Below, piece after piece: positions 11,402-33,845 of a DNA stretch of 64,000 bases. The notes under the pieces are model-generated. The model saw nothing but the letters and a program-made list of their open reading frames with translations, did no database searches and was not told where the DNA came from. Each line of letters opens with the position of its first letter. Within the stretch, counting starts at the first letter, position 1. The position numbers were made by a program, and so were the translations under genes. This DNA comes from a virus, in the IMG/VR virus record IMGVR_UViG_3300015371_000016, positions 13,128 to 77,127 of that record; one strand, written 5' to 3'.

Positions 11402-11874
11402 CCCGTCCTGCTGCGCAGCTCTCTCGGCACTAGGCGATCGATCTTGATGCCCTCACCGAATTTCGGGTTGTCGCTGTCCTCAAGCGTCTCGACGGAGACC
11501 GAGCGAAGCTCAGCGGAACCGCGTATGGCTCCGTTGTGCTGCGCTTCCATTAGGTTCTGTTCCACAGCCAAGCTGAAGGCCGCCGCACCCTCTTGGCGCT
11601 GCTGCAAGGCTAGATCGAACAGAGCACCTTGATTGTGGTCCACGCCATAGTGCAGCTTGTCGAGAGGCACGGGCTCGTCGAACGAATAGACCAGTCGGGC
11701 GAAGCCCTTGAATCTGATCAGATCGCTAGCCTCGACGATACCGTATTGACGGTGCTGCTCTACTATGCGGTCCAGAACGATAAGCGGCGCTTCGCCATAG
11801 ATTTGCTGCTGCGCGCCGCCCGCGATGATCTGCGTCCGCTCTGGACCAAAGGAAAAATCTTCTTCGGCAGGCAC
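11398..11874 (-). CDS. Conserved head-associated hypothetical protein (start likely further upstream)
   Basis: Follows major capsid gene; IVEQHRQYG..LVYSFD pattern. Confidence 0.5.
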   Translation of the reverse strand: MPAEEDFSFGPERTQIIAGGAQQQIYGEAPLIVLDRIVEQHRQYGIVEASDLIRFKGFARLVYSFDEPVPLDKLHYGVDHNQGALFDLALQQRQEGAAAFSLAVEQNLMEAQHNGAIRGSAELRSVSVETLEDSDNPKFGEGIKIDRLVPRELRSRTG

Positions 11875-18746: not shown

Positions 18747-19616
18747 TTAGGCTCTTTCTGCTTGCGCCGCAGCATGCACGACATCCCTAGACGATGGCCC
18801 ATACATATACGGCAGAGGCCCTAGCATAATGTGTCCGGTCTGCGTCGCGTAGCGCACCGCCTGGATGTCGGGATGCGCAGCGAGCCATTCATTGATCGCG
18901 CTGTTGACCGTGCAATAGGCGATTACGTCGTCCACCAGGATGTATTTCGCTCGGCCGAAGCAGAGCGCGATGTCCTTCAGCGCGCCTTCGTGGCTGTGAT
19001 TGCCGTCAATGTGCGCGAGATCGTACGTCCGTGACAAATGCGTCAAAGTGCCGCTATCGCACCGTGCAAGCCTCAGCTCGTGCTCCGGATACTCCTCGTG
19101 CAGCATCCCGTTCGCGTAGGTGATGTCGCCGATATCGATGCCGTGGTAGATCGTGCCGGCAGCACATCCTCGCAGCATCGCCCAGGCTGAGTAGCCGGCA
19201 CGGACGCCGATTTCAAAGATGCTCTTCGGTCGCAATGCAGAGCATAGCTCGGTGTAGAGGCTGTAACTCGGCGGGAAAAGTTCGGTGCGCTGATACTCGT
19301 CGAGAAAGAAGTCGCCTTGAGCGAAAATGCGTTGCGGTAGCGTGCCGTTGCCTTCCCACTCCACCCACGGCACCGCATTGAGCGCGTCCTGCGGCCCGAT
19401 CGTGCGGATGAATACTATCTGCCGTTCGTCGCTGTCCCAGATTTCCAGGTCCATGATCGGATCGCCGTCCGTGATCAGCTCACGAACCTCGAATCCAACA
19501 TTGGACTCTTTGTGCGGAATACGATCGGACGGGCAAAGATAGACCGTGCAATCCTTGCCATTGCCGAGGCGCTGTCCTTGTCGTGCGATCTCGGCGAGGA
19601 TTTCAGCGTCGGTCAC
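18747..19616 (-). CDS. Class I SAM-dependent methyltransferase (Methyltransf_24-like)
   Basis: IFEIGVRAGYS, YHGID, DLAHIDGNHSHEG, ILVDD; GTG start overlaps upstream TGA. Confidence 0.8.
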   Translation of the reverse strand: MTDAEILAEIARQGQRLGNGKDCTVYLCPSDRIPHKESNVGFEVRELITDGDPIMDLEIWDSDERQIVFIRTIGPQDALNAVPWVEWEGNGTLPQRIFAQGDFFLDEYQRTELFPPSYSLYTELCSALRPKSIFEIGVRAGYSAWAMLRGCAAGTIYHGIDIGDITYANGMLHEEYPEHELRLARCDSGTLTHLSRTYDLAHIDGNHSHEGALKDIALCFGRAKYILVDDVIAYCTVNSAINEWLAAHPDIQAVRYATQTGHIMLGPLPYMYGPSSRDVVHAAAQAERA

Positions 19617-21382
19617 GCAGGCAGTTTCTCCCGTGCGGTATCGAGCGCCTGCCTTCCACGTGCTGTCAACATGTCGTCGGGCAGATCGCGTAGGTGGTAG
19701 ATGTAAACGTAATAGCAGCGGCAGTTGTGCGTTACGACTCCCTGGGCTACATACCAATTATTGATAGTTTGGAGATTGTAGACGTGCCCAGACCAAGGCC
19801 GGTTATTGATGTGGACCACATTGCTGCGCTTCGTAGCGAAGGGAAGGCTGTCTATGAAATTGCTGACGCCATTCACGTAAAGCCGACGACCCTCTGGGAG
19901 TGGCACAGGAATAGATGGATCGATCTCGGGCCAAAGTTGCCCCCTAGCCCGCGTATTTGTCTCGACCAACGCGCTATCCGCGCCGCCCATGACAGCGGTG
20001 AAAGTGTGCTCTCGATAGCCAATAGGTTTGGCGTATCGCGTTTGACGATCAAACGTCATATTCAGAAGGCCGGCGGACAACCTCGTACCCAGACTGAGGC
20101 AAATATCCTCATCGCTAGAAATAAGACGCCCGACCAACATAGTGCTGACGCCAAGGCTGCTCATCAAGCTAGACGAGGCAAAAAGGCTTCGCGCACCGAA
20201 TTGCTGCGTAGAGCAAGAAGTCAGTCCAAGATAATCGGGTACGGAGAGGCCGAACTTGTTACCGCTCTTACTGCTAAGAACCTGCGCCCCGACGTACAAC
20301 GGCCTGTAGGTCCATACAATATCGATATCGCTATCGGTACCATCGCCGTGGAATTGCTGGCGCTGCCCACGCCGTGTCTCAGAGAACCCAAATTTCACGA
20401 GCGAGCTATATATTTGCTCAATGCTGGGTATTGCATCGTTATCGTCAGATTCCGTCCCGGCGACCTCTCCGGTAGCCTCGATGACGTGATCGCCATTATT
20501 CAAAGACTGAATAGGACGCCACCCGCACGGCGTAAGAATTGGATGATTTGGTGTCGCGCGGAGCGTTTTACCCGTGTCCGTAATCAGCTCGGTCAATTGA
20601 CCGCTGTACCAGCGCCGATACGCTACTTCCACACCATCAGCGAATGGAAGCCTGGTATCTCCCGGTAAGCAGAATATTTCTTCGCCCGGCTGAGTGATCT
20701 TGTCCGAGAAGCCCGCGTCTCCGGCCCGCATGAAGCCGCGTGTGTGCGCCCAGCTATTCCGGATCGCATACACCTGCTGGTCGCGCTCCTTGTGGTCCTC
20801 GCGATAATCGTAGCCGGACTGGCGCCAGTGTGAGCGCCAGCGTGCGGCAATCGCTCCCGCGTCCTCTGCTAGGATCGCCGAGACCGAAGCATTCAGCTTG
20901 TGACCCTGATCGATGATCACCCGTCGCTCGACGAACGGCAGCGAGGTCAGACCCTTGCGTATCTCCCGCTTCTGCTCTCTGCGGTCGAGCTGGTCGGTGC
21001 CGCCAATCGGGACACTGGTGGCCCAGCCCTGAAAGCGCCTCAGCGTGTCGTTGATCGCCTGCTCACGGTTCAGTTTGATCAGATCGGCTGACGCCTGGAT
21101 GCGTCGGTTTAGTTCCGCCCGCAGCTTCGGCGCTATCCGCTGTACCGTAAAGCGATCTACACCTGGATGGCGGCGCAGCACCGTTCCTTCATCGATCAAT
21201 CGCGTGTAGGTCGAGCCTAGCACCTTGCGCAGCTCTTCGGCCAATGAACGCTCTGACACCATGTCAGTAATGGCCGCCTCGCGGATCAGATCGATCCAAT
21301 ACTGCAAACGCTCTTCGGACTCATAGCCGTGCTCAGCGATATCGTTCAGCGCGTCAGTGACAACCTGGAAGAACGTGGCCAT
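19613..21382 (-). CDS. Head morphogenesis protein (Mu gpF / SPP1 gp7-like) containing an intein
   Basis: IDQGHKL, W.SHWRQ.GYDYREDHKERD, PGEEIF[intein]CRC motifs. Confidence 0.85.
   Translation of the reverse strand: MATFFQVVTDALNDIAEHGYESEERLQYWIDLIREAAITDMVSERSLAEELRKVLGSTYTRLIDEGTVLRRHPGVDRFTVQRIAPKLRAELNRRIQASADLIKLNREQAINDTLRRFQGWATSVPIGGTDQLDRREQKREIRKGLTSLPFVERRVIIDQGHKLNASVSAILAEDAGAIAARWRSHWRQSGYDYREDHKERDQQVYAIRNSWAHTRGFMRAGDAGFSDKITQPGEEIFCLPGDTRLPFADGVEVAYRRWYSGQLTELITDTGKTLRATPNHPILTPCGWRPIQSLNNGDHVIEATGEVAGTESDDNDAIPSIEQIYSSLVKFGFSETRRGQRQQFHGDGTDSDIDIVWTYRPLYVGAQVLSSKSGNKFGLSVPDYLGLTSCSTQQFGARSLFASSSLMSSLGVSTMLVGRLISSDEDICLSLGTRLSAGLLNMTFDRQTRYAKPIGYREHTFTAVMGGADSALVETNTRARGQLWPEIDPSIPVPLPEGRRLYVNGVSNFIDSLPFATKRSNVVHINNRPWSGHVYNLQTINNWYVAQGVVTHNCRCYYVYIYHLRDLPDDMLTARGRQALDTAREKLPA
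19724..20671 (-). mobile_element. Intein, 316 aa, inserted in PGEEIF^CRC
   Basis: Block A CLPGDT, block B LRATPNHPILT..GW, block F/G VYNLQT..WYVAQGVVTHN followed by Cys+1. Confidence 0.9.
19784..20668 (+). CDS. HTH + DUF559/Vsr-like endonuclease nested antisense within the intein
   Basis: GGAG RBS at 19771 before GTG 19784; two HTH-like segments (GKAVYEIADAIHVKPTTL; GESVLSIANRFGVSRLTI); E.EL..L...Q.PVGPYNIDIA...AVE...R..YLLNAGY.IV.V. Confidence 0.75.
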   Translation: MPRPRPVIDVDHIAALRSEGKAVYEIADAIHVKPTTLWEWHRNRWIDLGPKLPPSPRICLDQRAIRAAHDSGESVLSIANRFGVSRLTIKRHIQKAGGQPRTQTEANILIARNKTPDQHSADAKAAHQARRGKKASRTELLRRARSQSKIIGYGEAELVTALTAKNLRPDVQRPVGPYNIDIAIGTIAVELLALPTPCLREPKFHERAIYLLNAGYCIVIVRFRPGDLSGSLDDVIAIIQRLNRTPPARRKNWMIWCRAERFTRVRNQLGQLTAVPAPIRYFHTISEWKPGISR

Positions 21383-21394
21383 TCGTTCCTACTG

Positions 21395-21619
21395 ACGTTG
21401 CGTTGCGTTGCGTTGCGTTGCGCAGCGGTGCGTGGCGGTGCGTGGCGCTGTGGAGAGGCGCGTTGCGGAGCGGAGCGATGCGGAGCGAAGTGGTGCGGTG
21501 CGGTGCGTTGCGTGGCGGTGCGCAGCGATGCAGCGCGGCGAGGTGCGGTGCGCGGCCGGGCGGAGCGTGGCGTGGCGTGGAGAAGCGCGGCGAGGCGTAG
21601 CGGTGCGTGGCGGCGCGAA
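21395..21619 (-). repeat. Phased pentamer array A, 45 units (plus strand GCG-NN; minus strand NN-CGC)
   Basis: Parsed by hand: unbroken 5-nt register, triplet mostly GCG (variants GAG, GTG, GCA, GCC, ACG), variable dinucleotide. Confidence 0.9.
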
Positions 21620-21623
21620 GACA

Positions 21624-22145
21624 TTACTTCCTGACATGAGAACGTCGTGGCGACAGACTGATCATCCATTCGACTGCATTGAACGCGGGCAGATCGTTGG
21701 ACGATCCGCGTGATACCTTCTCGATAGCTCGTACACCGCGCCTCGAAAGCGTCCATAGCGCCGCTTCGCGCACGATCGAGTCCGTAGAAAACCGTGCCTG
21801 CTCGTCGAGATTTAAAGCGTCTAGCTCCACTACCTCTGCCTGCTTCCGGCCGGCGCCAAGTCGGTTATTGGCTCCCTTAAGATACCAAGAATGCTGTCGC
21901 TCGGCGATCTCTGGATCGGTCAGCCGACGCAGTCCGATCCTCGGACGGATGCAATCCCAAACTTGCAAATGTTCTCTCTCAAGTATGCGGCGCGCGGAAA
22001 TCAGAAAGCCAGTAGAGGAAGTCACAGGTACGCCAGCTATCGACGATAGGTCTTCGTAAGTGAAGACTGATCCTTTCTCGTTCTGGGCCAGATATCGAAC
22101 TAGGGCTGATGTAACCCCCGAACGCTCGAACTTGATCACGATCAA
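21624..22145 (-). CDS. Hypothetical protein with wHTH-like N-terminus, partner of the RAMP-like gene
   Basis: 173 aa; TAAGGA RBS; GSVFTYEDLSSIAG..SARRILERE pattern; bounded by arrays A and B. Confidence 0.65.
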   Translation of the reverse strand: MIVIKFERSGVTSALVRYLAQNEKGSVFTYEDLSSIAGVPVTSSTGFLISARRILEREHLQVWDCIRPRIGLRRLTDPEIAERQHSWYLKGANNRLGAGRKQAEVVELDALNLDEQARFSTDSIVREAALWTLSRRGVRAIEKVSRGSSNDLPAFNAVEWMISLSPRRSHVRK

Positions 22146-22155
22146 TCCTTATATT

Positions 22156-22415
22156 GCGTTGCGTTGCGTGGCGGCGAGATGCGAGGCGTAGCGCGGCGTT
22201 GCGAGGAGGCGATCTGCGTTGCGTTGCGTTGAGGCGAGGTGCGAGGCGGTGCGGAGCGTCGCGTTGCGGTGCGCAGCGGCGAGCGGCGCTGAGGGGTGGC
22301 GCGTGGCGATGCGTAGCGTTGCGTGGCGACGAGCTGCGCGGCGGCGAGTTGCGAAGCGTAGCGTGGCGTCGAGCTGCGAAGCGGTGCGTCGCGAAGCGCT
22401 GCGGGGCGTGGCGCC
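22156..22415 (-). repeat. Phased pentamer array B, 52 units
   Basis: Unbroken 5-nt register GCG/GAG/GTG-NN on plus strand, followed by GATAT. Confidence 0.9.
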
Positions 22416-22419
22416 GATA

Positions 22420-23007
22420 TCAGACTTTTAACTCCTGCCACTCGAACTTGGTTACACGGAAGCGCCCATTGCTGCCGGCATTAGCGGGCCGTCCACGACC
22501 GAGGCCGACGATCATCCCGCCTGATCTGAGAGTATGCTCGAAGACCTCGGCAGTAATAATGTCATCGACAACCGTGAACTCAGCGACGCCGTGCCATTTA
22601 TCGAATACCGGAAAGCGGCGCTTGACGCGCTTTCCTGATCCACGCACGCCGTCAGAATTGGCGTTGATCATAACCATCTTGGCGTCGTCTGGCTTGAGCG
22701 GCTTGCCGTTCGCGATCGGCATATTCCCGTTGCAGATTACGCCGGAGGTAAAGAAGCTCTTATATGTCGCTCCGCGCCGGCCGGGCACCTTGTCGCCCAG
22801 CTTCTGCGCTGCGAGATCGATGCATTGCTTCAGTCCCATCTGTGGAACACAGACTTGCCCTTCCGCTGTCGTGGTGCACTTTTCCCGCCACGTCCGCGCG
22901 TCATAGTCATCGTGAGACTCGCGATCTAGCCACGGCGCTTCGTGCAGCGCGGATTGGCTATAGGGTGAGCCAGGAATCGATTCCAGATATGCTTTGCATG
23001 TCTTCAT
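22420..23007 (-). CDS. Stand-alone Cas7/RAMP-like protein
   Basis: 195 aa; N-terminal strand + SP, VPQMGLKQCI (cf. RAMP IPGSSLKGAL), RFPVF..W.G..EF.V, Gly-rich loop GLGRGRPANAGSNGRF before the final strand. Confidence 0.7.
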   Translation of the reverse strand: MKTCKAYLESIPGSPYSQSALHEAPWLDRESHDDYDARTWREKCTTTAEGQVCVPQMGLKQCIDLAAQKLGDKVPGRRGATYKSFFTSGVICNGNMPIANGKPLKPDDAKMVMINANSDGVRGSGKRVKRRFPVFDKWHGVAEFTVVDDIITAEVFEHTLRSGGMIVGLGRGRPANAGSNGRFRVTKFEWQELKV

Positions 23008-23037
23008 CCTAGATTATTCCTTGTTGCGTGCGTTTTT

Positions 23038-23163
23038 GTGACGGGATGCGGTGCGGTGCGACCGAGTCGCGGTGCGGTGCGTTGCGTCGCGTTGCGATGC
23101 GAGGCGTCGAGGTGCGGAGCGATGCGTGGCGTTGCGGTGCGACGAGATGCGATGCGACGCGTC
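23038..23163 (-). repeat. Phased pentamer array C, 25 units with one 1-nt slip at about 23063
   Basis: GCG-NN register on plus strand, followed by GATAT as in array B. Confidence 0.85.
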
Positions 23164-23183
23164 GATATCCCTCAGAGACCGGC

Positions 23184-23278
23184 CCGTCACGGCTGGTGCA
23201 CGTTCCAGCGGCGCCCATAGCGCCACCGATCCCAAAGGAATTGGTAATATCTATCGTGCTCTCCAGGCACCGTGACGG
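23184..23278 (-). ncRNA. Predicted structured leader upstream of array C
   Basis: CCGTCACGG/CCGTGACGG, CTGG/CCAG and GCACG/CGTGC nested stems enclosing a GGCGC-CCATA-GCGCC hairpin and a second imperfect hairpin. Confidence 0.45.
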
Positions 23279-23342
23279 CGGCGCTTTCGCCGGGCATGAA
23301 GGCACAACTTTATATGCGGGTCAAGCGGTTCCTTCTGTTATG

Positions 23343-23402
23343 GCGAAGCGTTGCGTTGCGTTGCGTGGAGTCGCGCGGTGATGCGTCGCGTGGCGGCGTA
23401 GT
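23343..23402 (-). repeat. Phased pentamer array D, about 12 units
   Basis: GCGAA GCGTT GCGTT GCGTT GCGTG GAGTC GCGCG GTGAT GCGTC GCGTG GCGGC GTAGT. Confidence 0.8.
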
Positions 23403-23419
23403 GACGCACCCTAGCAGAT

Positions 23420-24910
23420 TTATCTCGAACTAGCCAATTTGAAGCTAGGTGGCTTAAGCCCAGCCGCCATTCCGTTGGCGCCCTGGCCGCCCTGGTCCAT
23501 AAGCAAGCTCTTCTGTTGCGCATCCTGCATATCCTGCGCATGCGCGGCAAGGGCCTCGGTATCCAGAGAAAGCGTGCCCTGGAAGATCAGCTCAGCTTTA
23601 TTGACCTCGCTTTGCAGCCACTCGGTCAGCCGAGCCTTATTCTCGGGATCTAAGCTGCCATCGTTCAGTAGCTGGTAAAGCGCCAGCGCCGCCTTCATCT
23701 TTGTATCCTCAACCTTCACCTTCTCGCTGTCGGGCTCTTGGATCAGCGAAGGCCACTCGGCCGTGAAGTTATTCTGCCATGTCTGCAACGCTGAGGCGTA
23801 GCGGACGTTGCCATATTCCTGCGGATACTCCTGCTGGATGCCTCGATAGAATTCTTCGTTCCAGGCACGGTGTTGGACGATGTTGGTCAGCCACTCATAG
23901 ACCGGGTCCATGCTCTCGCGGAAGCCGTCCACAAAGCGAGCAATCACCTTGGCATCCTCGGTGCCCTCGCCGAAGCCCTCGACCATCGTTTCGTTCTCTA
24001 GCAGGATCGCCGGCAGAGCCGCACCGGTCGCTAGATTCTTGAGAATATTATTCCTCGCGAATGTGCCGGCGCCGTCGATATTCGTTAGATTGAGCGAAGA
24101 GATATCTTCGTCCACGCCGATCGACAACACGTTGTCCGTGCGGCCCTCTTGCAGCATCGATCGCTTGCGAGCGAATATGTTGATCATCCCTCTATTAGCG
24201 ATACCACCGGGTGCCTGCATCTTTGCGATCAGCAGTCCCGCTTTCCGGGCGATCATGTCGTCGGTGATCATGCAGTGCAGGTAGCTCTTGAGCGGATAAA
24301 GCACCCGCTGAAAAACCGATCTTCCCGTGAATCCGAACGCGCTGCCGGTATACGATATATACAGCGGCTCCTCGTTCATCACCACACACGTGCGGCTGGG
24401 ATGGTAGGTCTCACCCTGCGTCGTTACCTGCATCGCCTTTTGGAACAGTGGCGAATTCGGGTCCTGGTCGAGCATTAGGCTGCCGGCGGTATTCAGCGGA
24501 TCGAGCACGTTCAGGAATATGCTGTCCGTCGCTAGAGTCCCTACTTCCAACGGTGCCGTCGCTGGCTTGCCCTCGATGCCTAGCACCACCGAAGAAAGGC
24601 CGTAGATGCGCGACTGCTTGATGACGTTCGCGATGACCTTGTCGGCCTTCATCGCACGCCACTGTTTCTGGAATGCCTCGGCTACTCGCTCGGGCGCGCC
24701 TGAGACGGTGATCTCTCGGTCCTGGCTCTGTGCGAGCTGGATCGGCGCTTCGACCATCTTGGCGCCGATCGGATGATACAGATAGATCAGCTTGCAGAGC
24801 TGGTAGCTCACGTCGCTGCCGGGCAGGATATCGTCAGCGGTCAGTATCTGCATCAGCGCCGGCCCGACATTGGAGCCGACGACCGAGATCGATGCTCCGC
24901 TACCGCTCAT
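23420..24910 (-). CDS. Portal protein (DUF1073-like)
   Basis: YQLCKLIYLYHPIGAKM, VLDPLNTAGS, YHPSRT, FGFTGRSV, GFGEGTED motifs; follows TerL. Confidence 0.85.
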   Translation of the reverse strand: MSGSGASISVVGSNVGPALMQILTADDILPGSDVSYQLCKLIYLYHPIGAKMVEAPIQLAQSQDREITVSGAPERVAEAFQKQWRAMKADKVIANVIKQSRIYGLSSVVLGIEGKPATAPLEVGTLATDSIFLNVLDPLNTAGSLMLDQDPNSPLFQKAMQVTTQGETYHPSRTCVVMNEEPLYISYTGSAFGFTGRSVFQRVLYPLKSYLHCMITDDMIARKAGLLIAKMQAPGGIANRGMINIFARKRSMLQEGRTDNVLSIGVDEDISSLNLTNIDGAGTFARNNILKNLATGAALPAILLENETMVEGFGEGTEDAKVIARFVDGFRESMDPVYEWLTNIVQHRAWNEEFYRGIQQEYPQEYGNVRYASALQTWQNNFTAEWPSLIQEPDSEKVKVEDTKMKAALALYQLLNDGSLDPENKARLTEWLQSEVNKAELIFQGTLSLDTEALAAHAQDMQDAQQKSLLMDQGGQGANGMAAGLKPPSFKLASSR

Positions 24911-24911
24911 G

Positions 24912-26249
24912 TCAGAACCCCTTAGCGTCACCCAGCGCGCAGGCTATGCCGTAGCAAAAAGCGTCGAGCAGATCGTCTTCGCGATTGTCGATCCCTACTC
25001 TGTAACCGACCACTTGGCCGAGAAGATGGTTCCGGCTGGTCTCATTATATATGAGTGTGCGATCATAGGCCGGGCCGGATATCTTGACCTCGCCACGGTG
25101 CACGTAGCCGCTCACTGAGACCGCCCTGGCGTCCTTCCCTAGTGCCACAAGCTGGCTGTCGATCGGATCGGCCGGCAGACCTCGGCGCCTTGCTTGCTGG
25201 AGCAGGATCGTGCCTGAGCCCTTGTCCTCGATGTAAGCGCCCGTCGCACCGAAGCGCGCGTGGCACTGTCTCGCCAGCTCTTCCATGCGCTGGTAGACAC
25301 CCGGCAGCCAGACTTCGAGCAGCGAGCCTTCCACCTTAATAATATCGTAGTCCAGGATTATCAGCGGCGTGCCGACATGCTGGCTGCGAGCCCAGTAGAT
25401 CACCGCTGTGCCGTCGTGCTGGCTTCTGTCCTTCAGCGCGGTATCGATCGTGCAGAAGACCAGATCACAGAAGGACGGGTAATCGACCGGCCTGTCGTTA
25501 TCGAGCAGCGCAGGCAGCGGAAAGAACGCTGCTCCGCTAAAGTCCACGAACTCAGCGAGGTACTCTTGCTGATAGACCAGCGGATGCGTCTCCGCCTCGA
25601 TCTGCCGAAGCTCCTCTCTGGGCATGTAGGGATTAGCGCTGGTAGGCGCGTGATACTCGACGAAGCCCATGTCCGCGTTATTGCAGAGCTGCCAAAGGAA
25701 ATTGTCTGGATCGATCCCGTTGGTGTTCGACAGCGCGATACAAGAACCGCGATAGTCCACTAGGGTCGGCCGTATCGCCTTCCGCCAAATGTCCCTCATG
25801 TTCGACTTGGCGAAGGCCGCTTCGTCGATGACGACCTGATGGTAGCGTCGTGACCGGCCCGCCCGCTCATTCTCTAGCGACCAGAAATCTATGCGGCCGC
25901 CCGCATTGGTCCTGATCAGTCCGTCGTTCCTCGATGCCCTGGTGACACAGGGAGCCAACATTGTCGCCAGCTCAGAATATGCCTCGGCGATGAACTTATA
26001 CTCCGGCGCGAACCATCCGACGAATTTACCGCGCAAGGCTGCGTCGGCCGCTATCGTCTGTCCTAATAGGGTCTTGCCCCACCGCCTGCCGCATCGGACG
26101 ACCTTGAACCTCCCTGGCATTTGGAAGGCACGAATCTGATCTTCGTGAAGGACGGGCAAATATACTTCCCGAGTGGAACCGTCCGAGCTGCTGCCGCCTC
26201 TGTTGTATGGTAGCTCAACTCGGAAGACTTGCTCCGTTTCCTCGGTCAT
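24912..26249 (-). CDS. terL: Terminase large subunit
   Basis: Walker A RCGRRWGKT, Walker B VVIDEAA, nuclease IDTA..DG, IEDKGSG, DDLLDA. Confidence 0.92.
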   Translation of the reverse strand: MTEETEQVFRVELPYNRGGSSSDGSTREVYLPVLHEDQIRAFQMPGRFKVVRCGRRWGKTLLGQTIAADAALRGKFVGWFAPEYKFIAEAYSELATMLAPCVTRASRNDGLIRTNAGGRIDFWSLENERAGRSRRYHQVVIDEAAFAKSNMRDIWRKAIRPTLVDYRGSCIALSNTNGIDPDNFLWQLCNNADMGFVEYHAPTSANPYMPREELRQIEAETHPLVYQQEYLAEFVDFSGAAFFPLPALLDNDRPVDYPSFCDLVFCTIDTALKDRSQHDGTAVIYWARSQHVGTPLIILDYDIIKVEGSLLEVWLPGVYQRMEELARQCHARFGATGAYIEDKGSGTILLQQARRRGLPADPIDSQLVALGKDARAVSVSGYVHRGEVKISGPAYDRTLIYNETSRNHLLGQVVGYRVGIDNREDDLLDAFCYGIACALGDAKGF

Positions 26250-32532: not shown

Positions 32533-32948
32533 TCATGTACCACTCGATGGATATCACTGATCTCGCACTAGCTGCTGCCCTTACCGGCGGCCCTAATCCT
32601 AATAGGGCCTATCTCGCCTACGATCTATTCCTCAAAGGCTACTACGAAGCGGTCGCCGGCACTAACGCTGAGCCGAACTTTATCGGTCAACTGAAGCTGC
32701 TTAAGATCACACAAAACAAGCGAGGCAAGTCCTGGTCTCGCTATCGTCACAAGAGCCTTCTGGTCAACGATCCGGTGCGCGCTGTGCTCGGCATACGAGA
32801 ATCACAAACAGGCGACGTGATCGAGGAACAGAACAGTCGGGGCGTCATCAAGATGCGCTGGGTAGTCGATCTGATCAAAGCACCCGAAGACGATCCTGTT
32901 TCGTGGATGGTCGGCTTCACGCCGATGCCCGGAGACTATTCCCACTGA
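32526..32948 (+). CDS. Hypothetical protein
   Basis: 140 aa, coupled to upstream gene. Confidence 0.55.
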   Translation: MLIMYHSMDITDLALAAALTGGPNPNRAYLAYDLFLKGYYEAVAGTNAEPNFIGQLKLLKITQNKRGKSWSRYRHKSLLVNDPVRAVLGIRESQTGDVIEEQNSRGVIKMRWVVDLIKAPEDDPVSWMVGFTPMPGDYSH

Positions 32949-32975
32949 TTGAAGTCGGCGGGATTCCTTCTCGCC

Positions 32976-33033
32976 GATTTAATGCGGCCACCCATAGGGT
33001 GTCGGTCCCAAGCCCGGACAAACGCAGAGGGTC
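32976..33033 (+). ncRNA. Twister ribozyme 4
   Basis: UAA-UGCG-GC, P3 CACCC/GGGUG, CGGUCCCAAGCCCG, AAACGCA-GAGGG; P2 covaries UGCG/CGCA. Confidence 0.85.
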
Positions 33034-33057
33034 CTTCCATACAGAGGAAACATCACT

Positions 33058-33393
33058 ATGCCGAGACGACCTAGAAAGAAGGAGGCGGCTAACGGCGCTT
33101 CTAAAAACGGGGAAACCAGATGGCAAGGCCATGATCCGGTTTTCTTCCATCGACAGCAAGTCAAAGTCGGCGTGCGCTTTGTGAATTTCGGCCGAATGGA
33201 TCACGGCTCGATTTGGGAAGTAATTCAGATTTACACCCACGTCGTGCTGGCGAGCGGCAACATACGTCGCTCGCAGGTCGAACAAGTGGAGCGACTGTCG
33301 GATGACGTTCTGATACGCAGGCAAGGCCGCAATGATCCGCGTCGCTGCAAATTTTCGACGCTCTCTTACTCAGCTATCTGGAGGATATCGTGA
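33058..33393 (+). CDS. Hypothetical early protein
   Basis: ACAGAGGA leader then ATG. Confidence 0.6.
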   Translation: MPRRPRKKEAANGASKNGETRWQGHDPVFFHRQQVKVGVRFVNFGRMDHGSIWEVIQIYTHVVLASGNIRRSQVEQVERLSDDVLIRRQGRNDPRRCKFSTLSYSAIWRIS

Positions 33394-33845
33394 GCCGTTC
33401 ACGCGAGACTTTCGACGTATGGTGCGCCGTGCGAGTCGAAGCTGATGCCGGCACTAGACTTGAGATCGTCAGGAACGAAAAAGGAGATTGGGTTTGCCTC
33501 GGCGCAGCCCCGGTCAATAAGACCCTCGCTCTTCCGGCTCCAAATGCCAAGTCTCAAGGCGCCGAGTTGACCAAGAAACTCCTAGGTGAGCGCAGCAAAC
33601 GCTACAAACCCGGGAATCATCCACTAGATGAAGCAATCTTGGCTGCTATATCAAAGCCGATCGATGCCCAGCATATTCGTGAAGCTTTGGGAATAGCCCC
33701 AGAAAATCCGCTAGCTAAATGTTTGACTCGCAGAGTCGCCAAACTAAAGAGCGAAAAGCTTATAAGGGTTTTCCCTCCTGACAGCCATGTTATGTGGCCT
33801 CGATACGTTCGAGCGTCCAACACCAACCTAAAAGTGGTAGCCTGA
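33390..33845 (+). CDS. Hypothetical protein with C-terminal wHTH-like region
   Basis: GTGA overlap with upstream gene; AILAAIS.PIDAQHIREALG pattern. Confidence 0.5.
   Translation: MSRSRETFDVWCAVRVEADAGTRLEIVRNEKGDWVCLGAAPVNKTLALPAPNAKSQGAELTKKLLGERSKRYKPGNHPLDEAILAAISKPIDAQHIREALGIAPENPLAKCLTRRVAKLKSEKLIRVFPPDSHVMWPRYVRASNTNLKVVA

What the first reader, a model, noticed from the sequence alone, without database searches (positions are those of the whole stretch)
21395..23402. Candidate RNA-guided system: orphan Cas7/RAMP-like gene and partner interleaved with four phased CGC-NN pentamer arrays
Seen: a 2-kb cassette sits between portal and head-morphogenesis genes, which are normally neighbours. 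On the minus strand it reads array D, structured leader, array C, 195-aa RAMP-like gene, array B, 173-aa wHTH-like gene, array A. The arrays (12, 25, 52 and 45 units) keep a 5-nt register with only one slip in about 134 units. The triplet is near-invariant (CGC on the coding strand, variants mostly CTC/CAC) while the dinucleotide varies non-periodically, which is unlike slippage microsatellites and like an information-carrying code. Established: Cas7 RAMPs polymerise on guide RNA at a fixed nucleotide step and have the IP..LK motif and C-terminal Gly loop seen here. No cas1/2/3/5/6/8/10 or repeat-spacer array is in the window. Inference: one subunit binds each CGC and presents the NN, so the dinucleotides spell a gapped target, for example to silence competing phage or host genes. 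From memory, phage systems with a Cas7-like protein and GGY-NN RNAs (VIPR) have been reported; I could not verify this, and the CGC triplet would be a different variant.
Basis: partly seen in the sequence, partly recalled or inferred. Interest (0 to 1): 0.95.

Follow-up and report, generated by a model that had tools for sequence, protein, structure and literature searches.

The report
Phage VIPR system with CGC-NN guides
This 2-kb cassette is a real copy of VIPR, the CRISPR-related phage system first described in 2026 in which a small Cas7-like protein reads five-letter-repeat guide RNAs; this copy uses C-G-C instead of G-G-Y as the fixed letters, so it is an untested variant of a known kind, and I found no target for its guides.

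Summary
Four 5-nt-periodic arrays (about 130 units of CGC-NN, coding strand only) interleave with a 195-aa and a 173-aa gene between the portal and MuF head genes of a 77-kb phage.

The 195-aa protein folds as a Cas7-type RAMP (pLDDT 97; Z 12.5 to Csm3/Cmr4). It is a sequence homologue of the published SUSP1 Vipr: hhalign probability 98%, and PDB 36PP is the only solved-structure match. The 173-aa partner has a winged-helix N-terminus, as the published DNA-binding Vap proteins do, but shows no similarity to SUSP1 Vap1.

All nine family loci I could read carry vipr, this vap and CGC-NN arrays on the coding strand. The fixed letters are 84-98% conserved. The NN letters are near-random and differ between phages whose genes are 90% identical.

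It differs from the characterised type II system in four ways:
- The scaffold is C-G-C, and two pocket residues differ in step with it.
- Guides end in a (CGCAA)2-5 cap, not a pseudoknot tail.
- Capped guide modules run up to 52 units.
- The cassette is inserted in the head-gene module.

Twelve seed searches and local scans found no target. This scan has already noted CGC-type VIPRs on other DNA (at least 56 genomes). Verdict: genuine, but a variant of a published class.

The parts
23341..23400 (-). Array D: 11-12 CGC-NN units. The NN letters are CA GA AT CG GA CA, then a (CGCAA)3 cap, then two further units.
23172..23340 (-). Spacer between arrays D and C. It is structured as RNA and holds a possible 36-aa ORF (ATG at 23297) with no clear ribosome-binding site. 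Its role is unresolved: it could be a 3' tail of D, a leader of C, or unrelated.
   Evidence: MFE -70.1 kcal/mol, z -2.97, 0 of 200 shuffles as stable. No Rfam match at E<=1. Not conserved in five related cassettes.
23046..23161 (-). Array C: 20 in-phase units, a +1 slip at 23061, then 3 more units. It ends just before the ribosome-binding site of vipr.
22420..23007 (-). vipr: a 195-aa Cas7-type RAMP. G-loop GLGRGRP...NGRF (residues 168-183), thumb segment RVKRRFP (127-133).
   Evidence: AF2 pLDDT 97.2, pTM 0.91. All listed Foldseek matches are Cas7-type RAMP subunits, best E 6.7e-07. VIA-align Z 12.5 to Cmr4/Csm3. hhalign to SUSP1 Vipr probability 98%, E 1.4e-13. The only PDB profile hit is 36pp 'SUSP1 Vipr protein', E 1.6e-11. 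phrog_4652 E 1.7e-07.
22154..22413 (-). Array B: 52 units. An internal (CGCAA) run at about 22216-22230 splits it into a module of about 36 variable units and one of 8-9, each ending in a cap.
21624..22145 (-). vap-like accessory gene, 173 aa from TTG 22145 (more likely 171 aa from GTG 22139). It has an N-terminal winged helix followed by a helical hairpin.
   Evidence: AF2 pLDDT 82. Residues 7-75 match the PurR winged helix at Z 7.0, rmsd 2.8. Foldseek gives mostly winged-helix regulators (MarR, GntR, SarA) at E 0.03-0.3. It co-occurs with vipr in 9 of 9 loci. No similarity to SUSP1 Vap1 (hhalign probability 0.2%). P0271 (99% identical, 171 aa) supports the later start.
21393..21617 (-). Array A: 45 units ending in (CGCAA)5, directly before the ribosome-binding site and ATG of the MuF-like gene.
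23420..24931 (-). Portal gene; upstream boundary of the inserted cassette.
   Evidence: PF06381 E 2e-16, phrog_146 E 6e-53.
19613..21382 (-). MuF-like head morphogenesis gene, interrupted by an intein; downstream boundary of the cassette.
   Evidence: phrog_15127 and phrog_324. The homologue in Shewanella phage vB_Sb_QDWS starts 4 nt after that phage's portal gene.

Best explanation
This is a VIPR (Viral Interference Programmable Repeat) system carried as a mobile cassette inserted between the portal and MuF genes of a 77-kb phage.

Shown here:
- The 195-aa protein is a Vipr-family RAMP.
- The 173-aa protein is a co-inherited accessory protein with a winged-helix N-terminus.
- The four arrays have the vrRNA-gene form: a fixed triplet alternating with a hypervariable dinucleotide, on the vipr coding strand.

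Inferred from the published type II mechanism:
- The arrays are transcribed with the genes.
- One Vipr protomer binds each CGC and flips it out of the way.
- The NN pairs are presented to double-stranded DNA and read a target of the form NNxNNx (one base skipped per unit).
- Binding silences transcription, most likely of a rival phage, prophage or satellite in the same host.

Specific to this branch:
- The scaffold is C-G-C (C1 and C3 nearly invariant, G2 looser) instead of G-G-Y.
- The residue aligned with SUSP1 Asp177, which reads G1, is Arg.
- The residue aligned with thumb Arg138, which salt-bridges G2, is Phe.
- Each guide module ends in 2-5 invariant CGCAA units rather than a structured pseudoknot tail. 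In sister phages the modules are separated by short T-rich linkers that could be processing sites.
For: Fold: AF2 model pLDDT 97. All listed Foldseek PDB matches are Cas7-type RAMP subunits of type VII, III-A and III-B complexes. VIA-align run against 48,161 chains without Foldseek gives Z 12.5-9.1 for 21 RAMP chains before any other fold appears.

Family:
- The family profile hits exactly one ORF in phage SUSP1 (E 1.7e-13).
- That ORF carries the published residues H17, K33, E71, M72, R138, D177, W178 and R179 at the published numbers. GGY-NN arrays flank it on its own strand.
- hhalign gives probability 98% over 167 columns.
- The only PDB sequence-profile match is 36pp, 'SUSP1 Vipr protein'.

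Arrays:
- Logo of 948 units from six phages: C .98, G .84, C .97, and NN carrying 0.03-0.07 bit.
- All nine loci of the family that I could read have CGC arrays on the coding strand next to vipr, together with the same vap. They are the window, five IMG/VR phages, and Acetobacteraceae, Xanthobacteraceae and Kiritimatiellia MAGs, the last at 49% identity.
- Hypervariability: phages G002 and G003 share 90% (vipr) and 89% (vap) nucleotide identity, but their NN strings align at only 43%.

Strand: read on the coding strand, CGC keeps two of the three published scaffold features (G2 and a pyrimidine at position 3). The opposite-strand reading, GCG, would put a purine in the pocket that the structure paper says excludes purines.

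Pocket differences:
- Two independent GGY lineages, SUSP1 (GVGDWRP) and Gordonia phage UmaThurman gp39 (GVGEWRP, GGY-NN array directly behind it), have an acid plus Trp in the G-loop and Arg in the thumb.
- The 120 closest CGC-family proteins have Arg plus Phe/Tyr in the G-loop (Gly in the window copy, Leu in one other). 117 of them have Phe and 2 have Tyr at the thumb position.

Cap: AA makes up 47% of the last four units of arrays and 9% elsewhere.

Mobility:
- The five sister phages share only vipr and vap with this phage. In at least four of them the cassette lies beside recombination genes (RecT-like or exonuclease VIII), and in one also near an integrase.
- Portal and MuF are 4 nt apart in the nearest cultured relative.
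Against: Nothing here shows transcription, processing, RNA binding or DNA targeting.

The window's own Vipr has Gly172 where 118 of the 119 other close homologues checked have Phe or Tyr. This position aligns with SUSP1 Trp178, which stacks on G2. This copy could therefore be weakened.

There is no conserved structured 3' tail, which is part of every characterised type II vrRNA.

The pocket-residue mapping rests on a profile alignment at 19% identity, not on a structure of this protein with RNA.

Module lengths of up to 52 variable units (52 in a sister phage, 39 in the window) far exceed the published 9-16, so the real RNA units may be cut differently from how I parsed them.
Confidence: 0.88

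Rival explanations
1. A decaying or disabled VIPR cassette. The arrays and genes are inherited from a working system, but this copy no longer works because its Vipr has lost the aromatic G-loop residue.
For: G172 occurs only in the window protein among the 120 closest homologues checked. All but one of the others have F or Y there. The position aligns with SUSP1 W178, which stacks on G2.
Against: Both ORFs are intact and full length. All other conserved G-loop and thumb residues are kept. The arrays are as clean as in the sister phages: G2 frequency is 0.85 here against 0.84 overall, with a single phase slip. The paper reports mutagenesis of D177 and R138, not of W178.
Confidence: 0.08
2. The arrays act at the DNA level, as iteron- or centromere-like binding sites for the winged-helix protein, and are not guide RNAs.
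For: The partner has a winged-helix DNA-binding fold. CGC recurs every half helical turn.
Against: A repeated protein-binding site would not need two maximally variable letters per unit (3.91 of 4 bits). It would also not turn over completely between phages that are 90% identical. The neighbouring gene is a homologue of a protein shown to bind exactly this kind of repeat as RNA. Arrays lie on the vipr coding strand in 9 of 9 loci.
Confidence: 0.03
3. The guide RNA is read from the opposite strand, as GCG-NN.
For: No promoter or terminator was identified on either strand, so the direction is not proven.
Against: In SUSP1 and UmaThurman the arrays are on the vipr strand, and the same holds for all nine CGC loci. 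GCG would put a purine at scaffold position 3, where the published pocket excludes purines. The conserved CGCAA cap sits at the gene-proximal 3' end of each module in the coding-strand reading.
Confidence: 0.04
4. The arrays are slippage microsatellites or repetitive coding sequence.
For: Open frames cross the arrays in several phases on both strands, because CGCNN rarely makes stop codons.
Against: The NN letters are near-random, unlike slippage products. Array lengths between vipr and vap are 274, 645, 261, 146, 193 and 166 nt in the six phages, so only two are multiples of three and no frame is conserved. The 5-nt period cannot keep a reading frame.
Confidence: 0.01

Closest known systems
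Type II VIPR of Escherichia phage SUSP1 (Vipr, Vap1, four vrRNAs; bioRxiv 10.64898/2026.04.26.720920 and .720927; PDB 36PP)
   Same: A homologous Vipr RAMP of the same size (191 against 195 aa), with a G-loop, thumb and helical insertion. A two-gene vipr-accessory operon. Pentamer arrays (three fixed letters, two hypervariable) on the coding strand both upstream and downstream. Phage-borne, with no CRISPR array.
   Different: The scaffold is CGC, not GGY. The G-loop has Arg where SUSP1 has Asp177, and the thumb has Phe where SUSP1 has Arg138. Guides end in a (CGCAA)n cap, not a conserved pseudoknot tail. Capped modules hold 3-52 variable units (median 14) against 9-16. The accessory protein is not detectably related to Vap1. 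The cassette sits between the portal and MuF genes.
Other published VIPR types (I, III-VII) with 'a related consensus' (NNNGG, YNNNG, NNNNG repeats)
   Same: The preprint states that non-GGY pentamers and winged-helix or HTH accessory proteins exist in some types. In its notation this array is C-N-N-C-G, which is compatible with YNNNG in a loose sense.
   Different: Here the fourth letter is an almost invariant C (0.98), which none of the three printed consensus strings conveys. The logos (fig. S17) and locus tables are not held as text, so I could not tell whether this branch is among the seven types.
CRISPR-Cas backbone subunits Cas7: Csm3 (III-A), Cmr4 (III-B), type VII Cas7
   Same: The same RAMP fold (Z 12.2-12.5, Foldseek E about 1e-06) and the same principle of one subunit per fixed step of guide RNA, with a thumb that flips bases.
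   Different: No sequence-level family match (Pfam and NCBIfam give nothing). The step is 5 nt with three bases sequestered, against 6 nt with one. There is no repeat-spacer array and no recognisable cas gene in the 2-kb cassette or its two flanking genes. It is carried by a phage.

Membership tests
VIPR | Vipr protein: a homologue of the characterised Vipr RAMP | tested here: met
   The family profile against the SUSP1 genome gives one hit, E 1.7e-13. hhalign probability 98%, E 1.4e-13. The only PDB profile hit is 36pp 'SUSP1 Vipr protein', E 1.6e-11. Both proteins match phrog_4652.
VIPR | RAMP fold with RRM core, glycine-rich loop and thumb | tested here: met
   pLDDT 97 model. Cas7-type matches only at the top of both fold searches. 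G168, G170, G178 and G181 are invariant or nearly so in 90 family members.
VIPR | Tandem 5-nt repeats, three conserved plus two hypervariable letters, next to vipr on its strand | tested here: met
   948 units in six phages with NN at 0.03-0.07 bit. 9 of 9 loci. Found nowhere else in the 77-kb genome.
VIPR | Conserved triplet is GGY (the canonical consensus) | tested here: not met
   The triplet is C(.98) G(.84) C(.97). The preprint allows 'a related consensus', so this does not exclude membership. It does set the locus apart from the characterised type II.
VIPR | Adjacent accessory (vap) gene with a predicted DNA-interacting domain | tested here: met
   Winged-helix N-terminus. Co-inherited in 9 of 9 loci. 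Not related to Vap1. Which of vap1-6 it is could not be checked.
VIPR | Invariant structured 3' tail capping each vrRNA (type II) | tested here: not met
   Modules end in (CGCAA)2-5 and then a ribosome-binding site or a T-rich linker. There is no conserved hairpin or pseudoknot. Only array D is followed by a structured stretch, and that stretch is not conserved.
VIPR | Natural targets that match the NN letters under the 1-nt skip rule | tested here: inconclusive
   No excess over shuffled guides in six phage genomes. Twelve seed scans of large collections gave only chance-level hits that do not extend beyond the seed.
VIPR | vrRNAs expressed and bound by Vipr; RNA-guided DNA binding and repression | not testable with these tools
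   This needs small-RNA sequencing, pull-down and reporter assays.
VIPR | Mostly virus-borne, outside CRISPR loci | tested here: met
   The genome is a 77-kb virus record. The cassette lies next to the large terminase, portal and MuF genes.
CRISPR-Cas (class 1) | Repeat-spacer array and further cas genes beside the Cas7 | tested here: not met
   The cassette holds only vipr and vap between structural genes. PADLOC and NCBIfam give nothing for either protein. The tandem-repeat scan shows no CRISPR-like array. The rest of the window was not searched gene by gene.

The most novel reading that the evidence does not exclude
The CGC branch is a naturally orthogonal VIPR code that is not yet described in print. 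A charge-swapped scaffold pocket (G-loop Asp to Arg, thumb Arg to Phe) reads C-G-C instead of G-G-Y. A repeat cap replaces the pseudoknot tail. Guides can run to 40-50 units, which would give DNA footprints above 100 bp. If so, Vipr scaffold specificity is evolvable by a few residues. Several non-cross-talking VIPR systems could then coexist in one cell, or be used side by side as tools.
Probability: 0.3. Interest if true: 0.55.

Novelty: new variant of a known kind. Interest (0 to 1): 0.4.

Why it matters
VIPR is a months-old class of RNA-guided DNA-binding system, and only its GGY type II form has been characterised.

This locus and its family show a branch with a different scaffold triplet, together with matching differences at the protein positions that read that triplet in the solved structure. 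The family is large: 889 clusters at 50% identity, found in phages and MAG contigs assigned to Alphaproteobacteria and Kiritimatiellia.

That gives a concrete hypothesis, testable by mutation, for how scaffold specificity is set. It also suggests that mutually orthogonal VIPR systems exist in nature.

The cassette's presence in phages that share no other detectable genes, and its insertion between two normally adjacent head genes, show that it moves as a self-contained module.

It does not change the picture of what VIPR is.

Tried and rejected
Direct searches:
- Sequence searches of both proteins against PDB, Pfam, NCBIfam and PADLOC gave nothing useful.
- Rfam found no ribozyme or known RNA in 21000-23800 at E<=1.
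- The promoter and terminator scan gave nothing above shuffled expectation.

Target searches under the published rule, with 0-3 skipped bases tested locally:
- 943 units against six phage genomes showed no excess over shuffled guides. For the 1-nt skip there were three windows at 18 of 20 matches against 1.7 expected.
- Codon-level matching of the window's guides against 347 Vipr and Vap proteins and all long ORFs of the six phages gave no 8-of-8 window.
- Seven seeds of ten units were scanned in IMG/VR.
- Three seeds were scanned in GTDB genomes.
- Two seeds were scanned in JGI metagenomes.
- One 14-unit seed with three mismatches allowed was scanned in 301 genomes drawn from the family of the Acetobacteraceae MAG that carries a sister cassette.

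Only two sequences matched in all these scans. One is an AT-rich gene shared by three contigs, one of them labelled a giant-virus MAG. The other is a Paludibacter intergenic repeat. Outside the seed both match at the random rate (16 of 60 and 6 of 18), so I treat them as chance.

The NN composition is close to uniform and fits no codon phase better than a flat model.

The preprint's supplementary tables are not held, so the VIPR type could not be assigned.

I did not run a complex prediction, because I make no claim that Vipr and Vap bind each other.
Full report
**What is there.** On the minus strand, between the portal gene (23420-24931) and a MuF-like head-morphogenesis gene (19613-21382), lie in order:
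- array D;
- a 167-nt spacer;
- array C;
- a 195-aa gene (22420-23007);
- array B;
- a 173-aa gene (21624-22145, more likely starting at GTG 22139);
- array A.

Written in 5-nt units the arrays read CGC-NN.

Over 126 window units the three fixed positions are C 0.98, G 0.85 (T 0.12, A 0.03, never C) and C 0.99. The two N positions carry 0.14 bit each.

In the whole 77-kb virus genome such arrays exist only here and only on this strand. Fifty second-order Markov genomes never exceeded 5 of 8 in-phase CGC.

**The 195-aa protein.** Pfam, NCBIfam, PADLOC and a direct PDB sequence search name nothing. The one signal is PHROG family 4652, of unknown function (E 1.7e-07).

The protein belongs to a large family: 889 clusters at 50% identity, 652 of them below E 1e-10.

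With a 90-sequence alignment AlphaFold gives pLDDT 97.2 and pTM 0.91. All listed Foldseek matches are Cas7-type RAMP subunits of CRISPR effector complexes (type VII Cas7, Csm3, Cmr4), with a best E of 6.7e-07. An all-against-all structural scan that does not depend on Foldseek ranks 21 RAMP chains first, at Z 12.5 down to 9.1. The RAMP fold is established.

**Link to VIPR.** Three 2026 preprints describe VIPR systems:
- A Vipr RAMP, an accessory vap gene and vrRNAs made of alternating GGY and NN letters.
- One protomer binds each repeat. The GGY bases are flipped out and held by the G-loop, thumb and helix 1.
- The NN pairs read double-stranded DNA with one base skipped per unit.
- The result is transcriptional silencing of rival phages and satellites.

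I fetched the SUSP1 genome and searched it with the profile of this window's family. Exactly one ORF matched (E 1.7e-13), and it is also the phrog_4652 member (E 2e-98). That ORF has H17, K33, E71, M72, R138, D177, W178 and R179 at the numbers given in the structure paper. It is flanked on its own strand by one upstream and three downstream GGY-NN arrays, so it is SUSP1 Vipr.

Profile-to-sequence alignment gives probability 98%, E 1.4e-13, over 167 columns. A profile search of all PDB sequences returns one entry only: 36pp, 'SUSP1 Vipr protein', E 1.6e-11. Membership of the Vipr family therefore rests on sequence as well as fold.

**Co-occurrence.** I could read nine loci:
- the window;
- five IMG/VR phages at 67-80% protein identity;
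- three GTDB MAG contigs, from Acetobacteraceae, Xanthobacteraceae and a Kiritimatiellia member at only 49% identity.

All nine have CGC-NN arrays on the coding strand flanking vipr. All nine have a homologue of the 173-aa gene.

Pooled over six phages (948 units) the logo is C .98, G .84, C .97, with NN at 0.03-0.07 bit.

The NN letters turn over fast. Phages G002 and G003 are 90% (vipr) and 89% (vap) identical in nucleotides, but their NN strings align at 43%, which is about background. This is the pattern expected of guides and not of slippage repeats or protein-binding sites.

**How this branch differs from the characterised type II.**

*Scaffold.* The triplet is C-G-C. Read on the coding strand it keeps the published G2 and a pyrimidine at position 3, and changes G1 to C. 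Read on the other strand (GCG) it would place a purine in the pocket that the structure paper says excludes purines. Together with strand co-orientation in all loci, this favours the coding-strand reading.

*Pocket residues.* In the alignment, SUSP1 D177 (hydrogen bonds to G1) corresponds to R171 here. R138 (thumb salt bridge to G2) corresponds to F132. W178 (stacks on G2) corresponds to an aromatic residue in the family. R179 is kept.
- Among the 120 closest homologues the G-loop has Arg followed by Phe or Tyr in all but two. 117 have Phe and 2 have Tyr at the thumb position.
- A second, independent GGY lineage behaves like SUSP1. Gordonia phage UmaThurman gp39 is a distant Vipr (hhalign 95%) with G-loop GVGEWRP and a thumb Arg. 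A GGY-NN array lies directly behind it on the same strand, annotated there as a protein-coding 'gene 40'.
- So acid plus Trp, with Arg in the thumb, goes with GGY. Arg plus Phe/Tyr, with Phe in the thumb, goes with CGC.
- It is my inference that an Asp-to-Arg change would suit a G-to-C change. It is reasonable chemistry, and from my own knowledge it parallels engineered PUF repeats that read cytosine through arginine. It is not shown here.

*3' end.* No module has a conserved structured tail. Modules instead end in two to five invariant CGCAA units. AA makes up 47% of the last four units of arrays and 9% elsewhere. In phages L001 and L004 successive modules are separated by short T-rich linkers, which could be processing sites. 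That too is inference.

*Length.* When arrays are split at the caps, the variable parts of capped modules run from 3 to 52 units, with a median of 14. The published range is 9-16.

*Accessory protein.* Its model (pLDDT 82) has a winged helix in residues 7-75 and then a helical hairpin. The winged helix matches the PurR N-terminal domain at Z 7.0, rmsd 2.8. Foldseek gives mostly winged-helix regulators such as MarR, GntR and SarA at E 0.03-0.3. It has no detectable similarity to SUSP1 Vap1. The preprint says some types have winged-helix or HTH-like Vaps. I could not determine which of vap1-6, if any, this one is.

**Genomic setting.**
- In the nearest cultured relative by portal protein (Shewanella phage vB_Sb_QDWS, 49% identity), the MuF homologue starts 4 nt after the portal gene. 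The 2-kb cassette is therefore an insertion.
- The five sister cassettes sit in phages that share no other detectable protein with this one. In at least four of them the cassette lies beside recombination genes (RecT-like or exonuclease VIII), and in one also near an integrase.
- The cassette is thus a mobile, self-contained module.
- No promoter or terminator stands out. Every array ends just before the next gene's ribosome-binding site. Co-transcription with the structural operon is the simplest assumption.

**Open points and caveats.**
- The window's Vipr is the only one of the 120 close homologues checked with Gly (G172) at the aromatic G-loop position. This copy may be weakened.
- The 167-nt stretch after array D folds better than all 200 shuffles (z -2.97). 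It is not conserved in relatives and matches no Rfam family. Its role is unknown.

**Targets.** I applied the published rule (NN, one skipped base, both strands).
- Locally, all guides against six phage genomes, with 0-3 skipped bases and shuffled controls, showed no enrichment.
- A codon-level search against Vipr and Vap proteins and phage ORFs found nothing.
- Twelve seed patterns were scanned against IMG/VR, GTDB genomes, JGI metagenomes and 301 genomes from the family of one sister-cassette host (an Acetobacteraceae MAG). Only two sequences matched, and neither extends beyond the seed.
- The seeds needed exact matches and covered about half of the units, so this is a weak negative.

**Novelty and score.** The class, its mechanism, the existence of non-GGY repeats and DNA-binding Vaps are all in print. 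This scan has already recorded CGC-type VIPRs on other DNA (70 notes in at least 56 genomes).

The preprint text I could read does not convey an invariant C at the fourth letter, the cap, the long modules or the pocket differences. Its figures and tables were not available.

I therefore rate this a new variant of a known kind, with interest 0.4. I put 0.88 on it being a genuine VIPR system. I put about 0.6 on it working by the same 1-nt-skip silencing mechanism against a rival mobile element.

Noticed in passing
window 19613-21382 (-): The MuF-like head gene carries an intein of about 300 aa. Its exteins align to residues 3-238 and 542-588 against the uninterrupted 278-aa homologue of Shewanella phage vB_Sb_QDWS. 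Pfam Intein_splicing matches at E 1.4e-08, just under its cut-off.
   Followed up: partly
L028 (Gordonia phage UmaThurman NC_031249.1), record 32723-33685: gp39 is a distant Vipr homologue (hhalign 95%). The stretch annotated as protein-coding 'gene 40' (33362-33685) is a GGY-NN vrRNA array: 30 forward pattern matches and none in reverse. This looks like a mis-annotated VIPR locus in a cultured actinophage.
   Followed up: partly
G001 (IMGVR_UViG_3300021475_000045) 855-924; G005 (IMGVR_UViG_3300050821_003438) 11477-11591, opposite strand: Extra CGC-NN arrays lie away from the vipr-vap cassette. In G001 a 13-unit capped array sits about 19 kb upstream. In G005 one sits about 0.7 kb downstream on the other strand. 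They may be solo vrRNAs like those reported for SUSP1-family phages.
   Followed up: no
L002 3740-4000 and 5365-5575: Arrays contain exact internal tandem duplications, one of 13 units and one of 5 units. This suggests that guide arrays grow by duplication followed by divergence of the NN letters.
   Followed up: no
window 22492-22494 (codon of G172 in vipr): The window's Vipr has GLGRGRP where 118 of the 119 other close homologues checked have G[ILV]GR[FY]R[PAV] (one has Leu). The codon GGA is three changes away from the usual Phe or Tyr codons, so this is not a trivial sequencing error.
   Followed up: partly
window 23187-23297 (-): A 36-aa ORF (MPGESAAVTVPGEHDRYYQFLWDRWRYGRRWNVHQP) lies inside the structured D-C spacer. 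It has no clear ribosome-binding site and no homologue in the five sister phages.
   Followed up: partly
L024 7127-7155, L025, L026 (IMG/VR contigs): The first ten units of array B match an AT-rich gene (...IGYIEGPGLPGSGERMDY...) exactly at all 20 NN positions. The gene is shared by three contigs, one of them labelled a giant-virus MAG. The match stops after unit 10 (unit 12 also matches), and the skipped base falls on codon position 1. I judge it to be chance.
   Followed up: yes
all arrays, six phages: G is under-represented at both NN positions (0.16 and 0.17). This may limit pairing of the guide letters with the C-rich scaffold. No codon-phase signal was found.
   Followed up: partly
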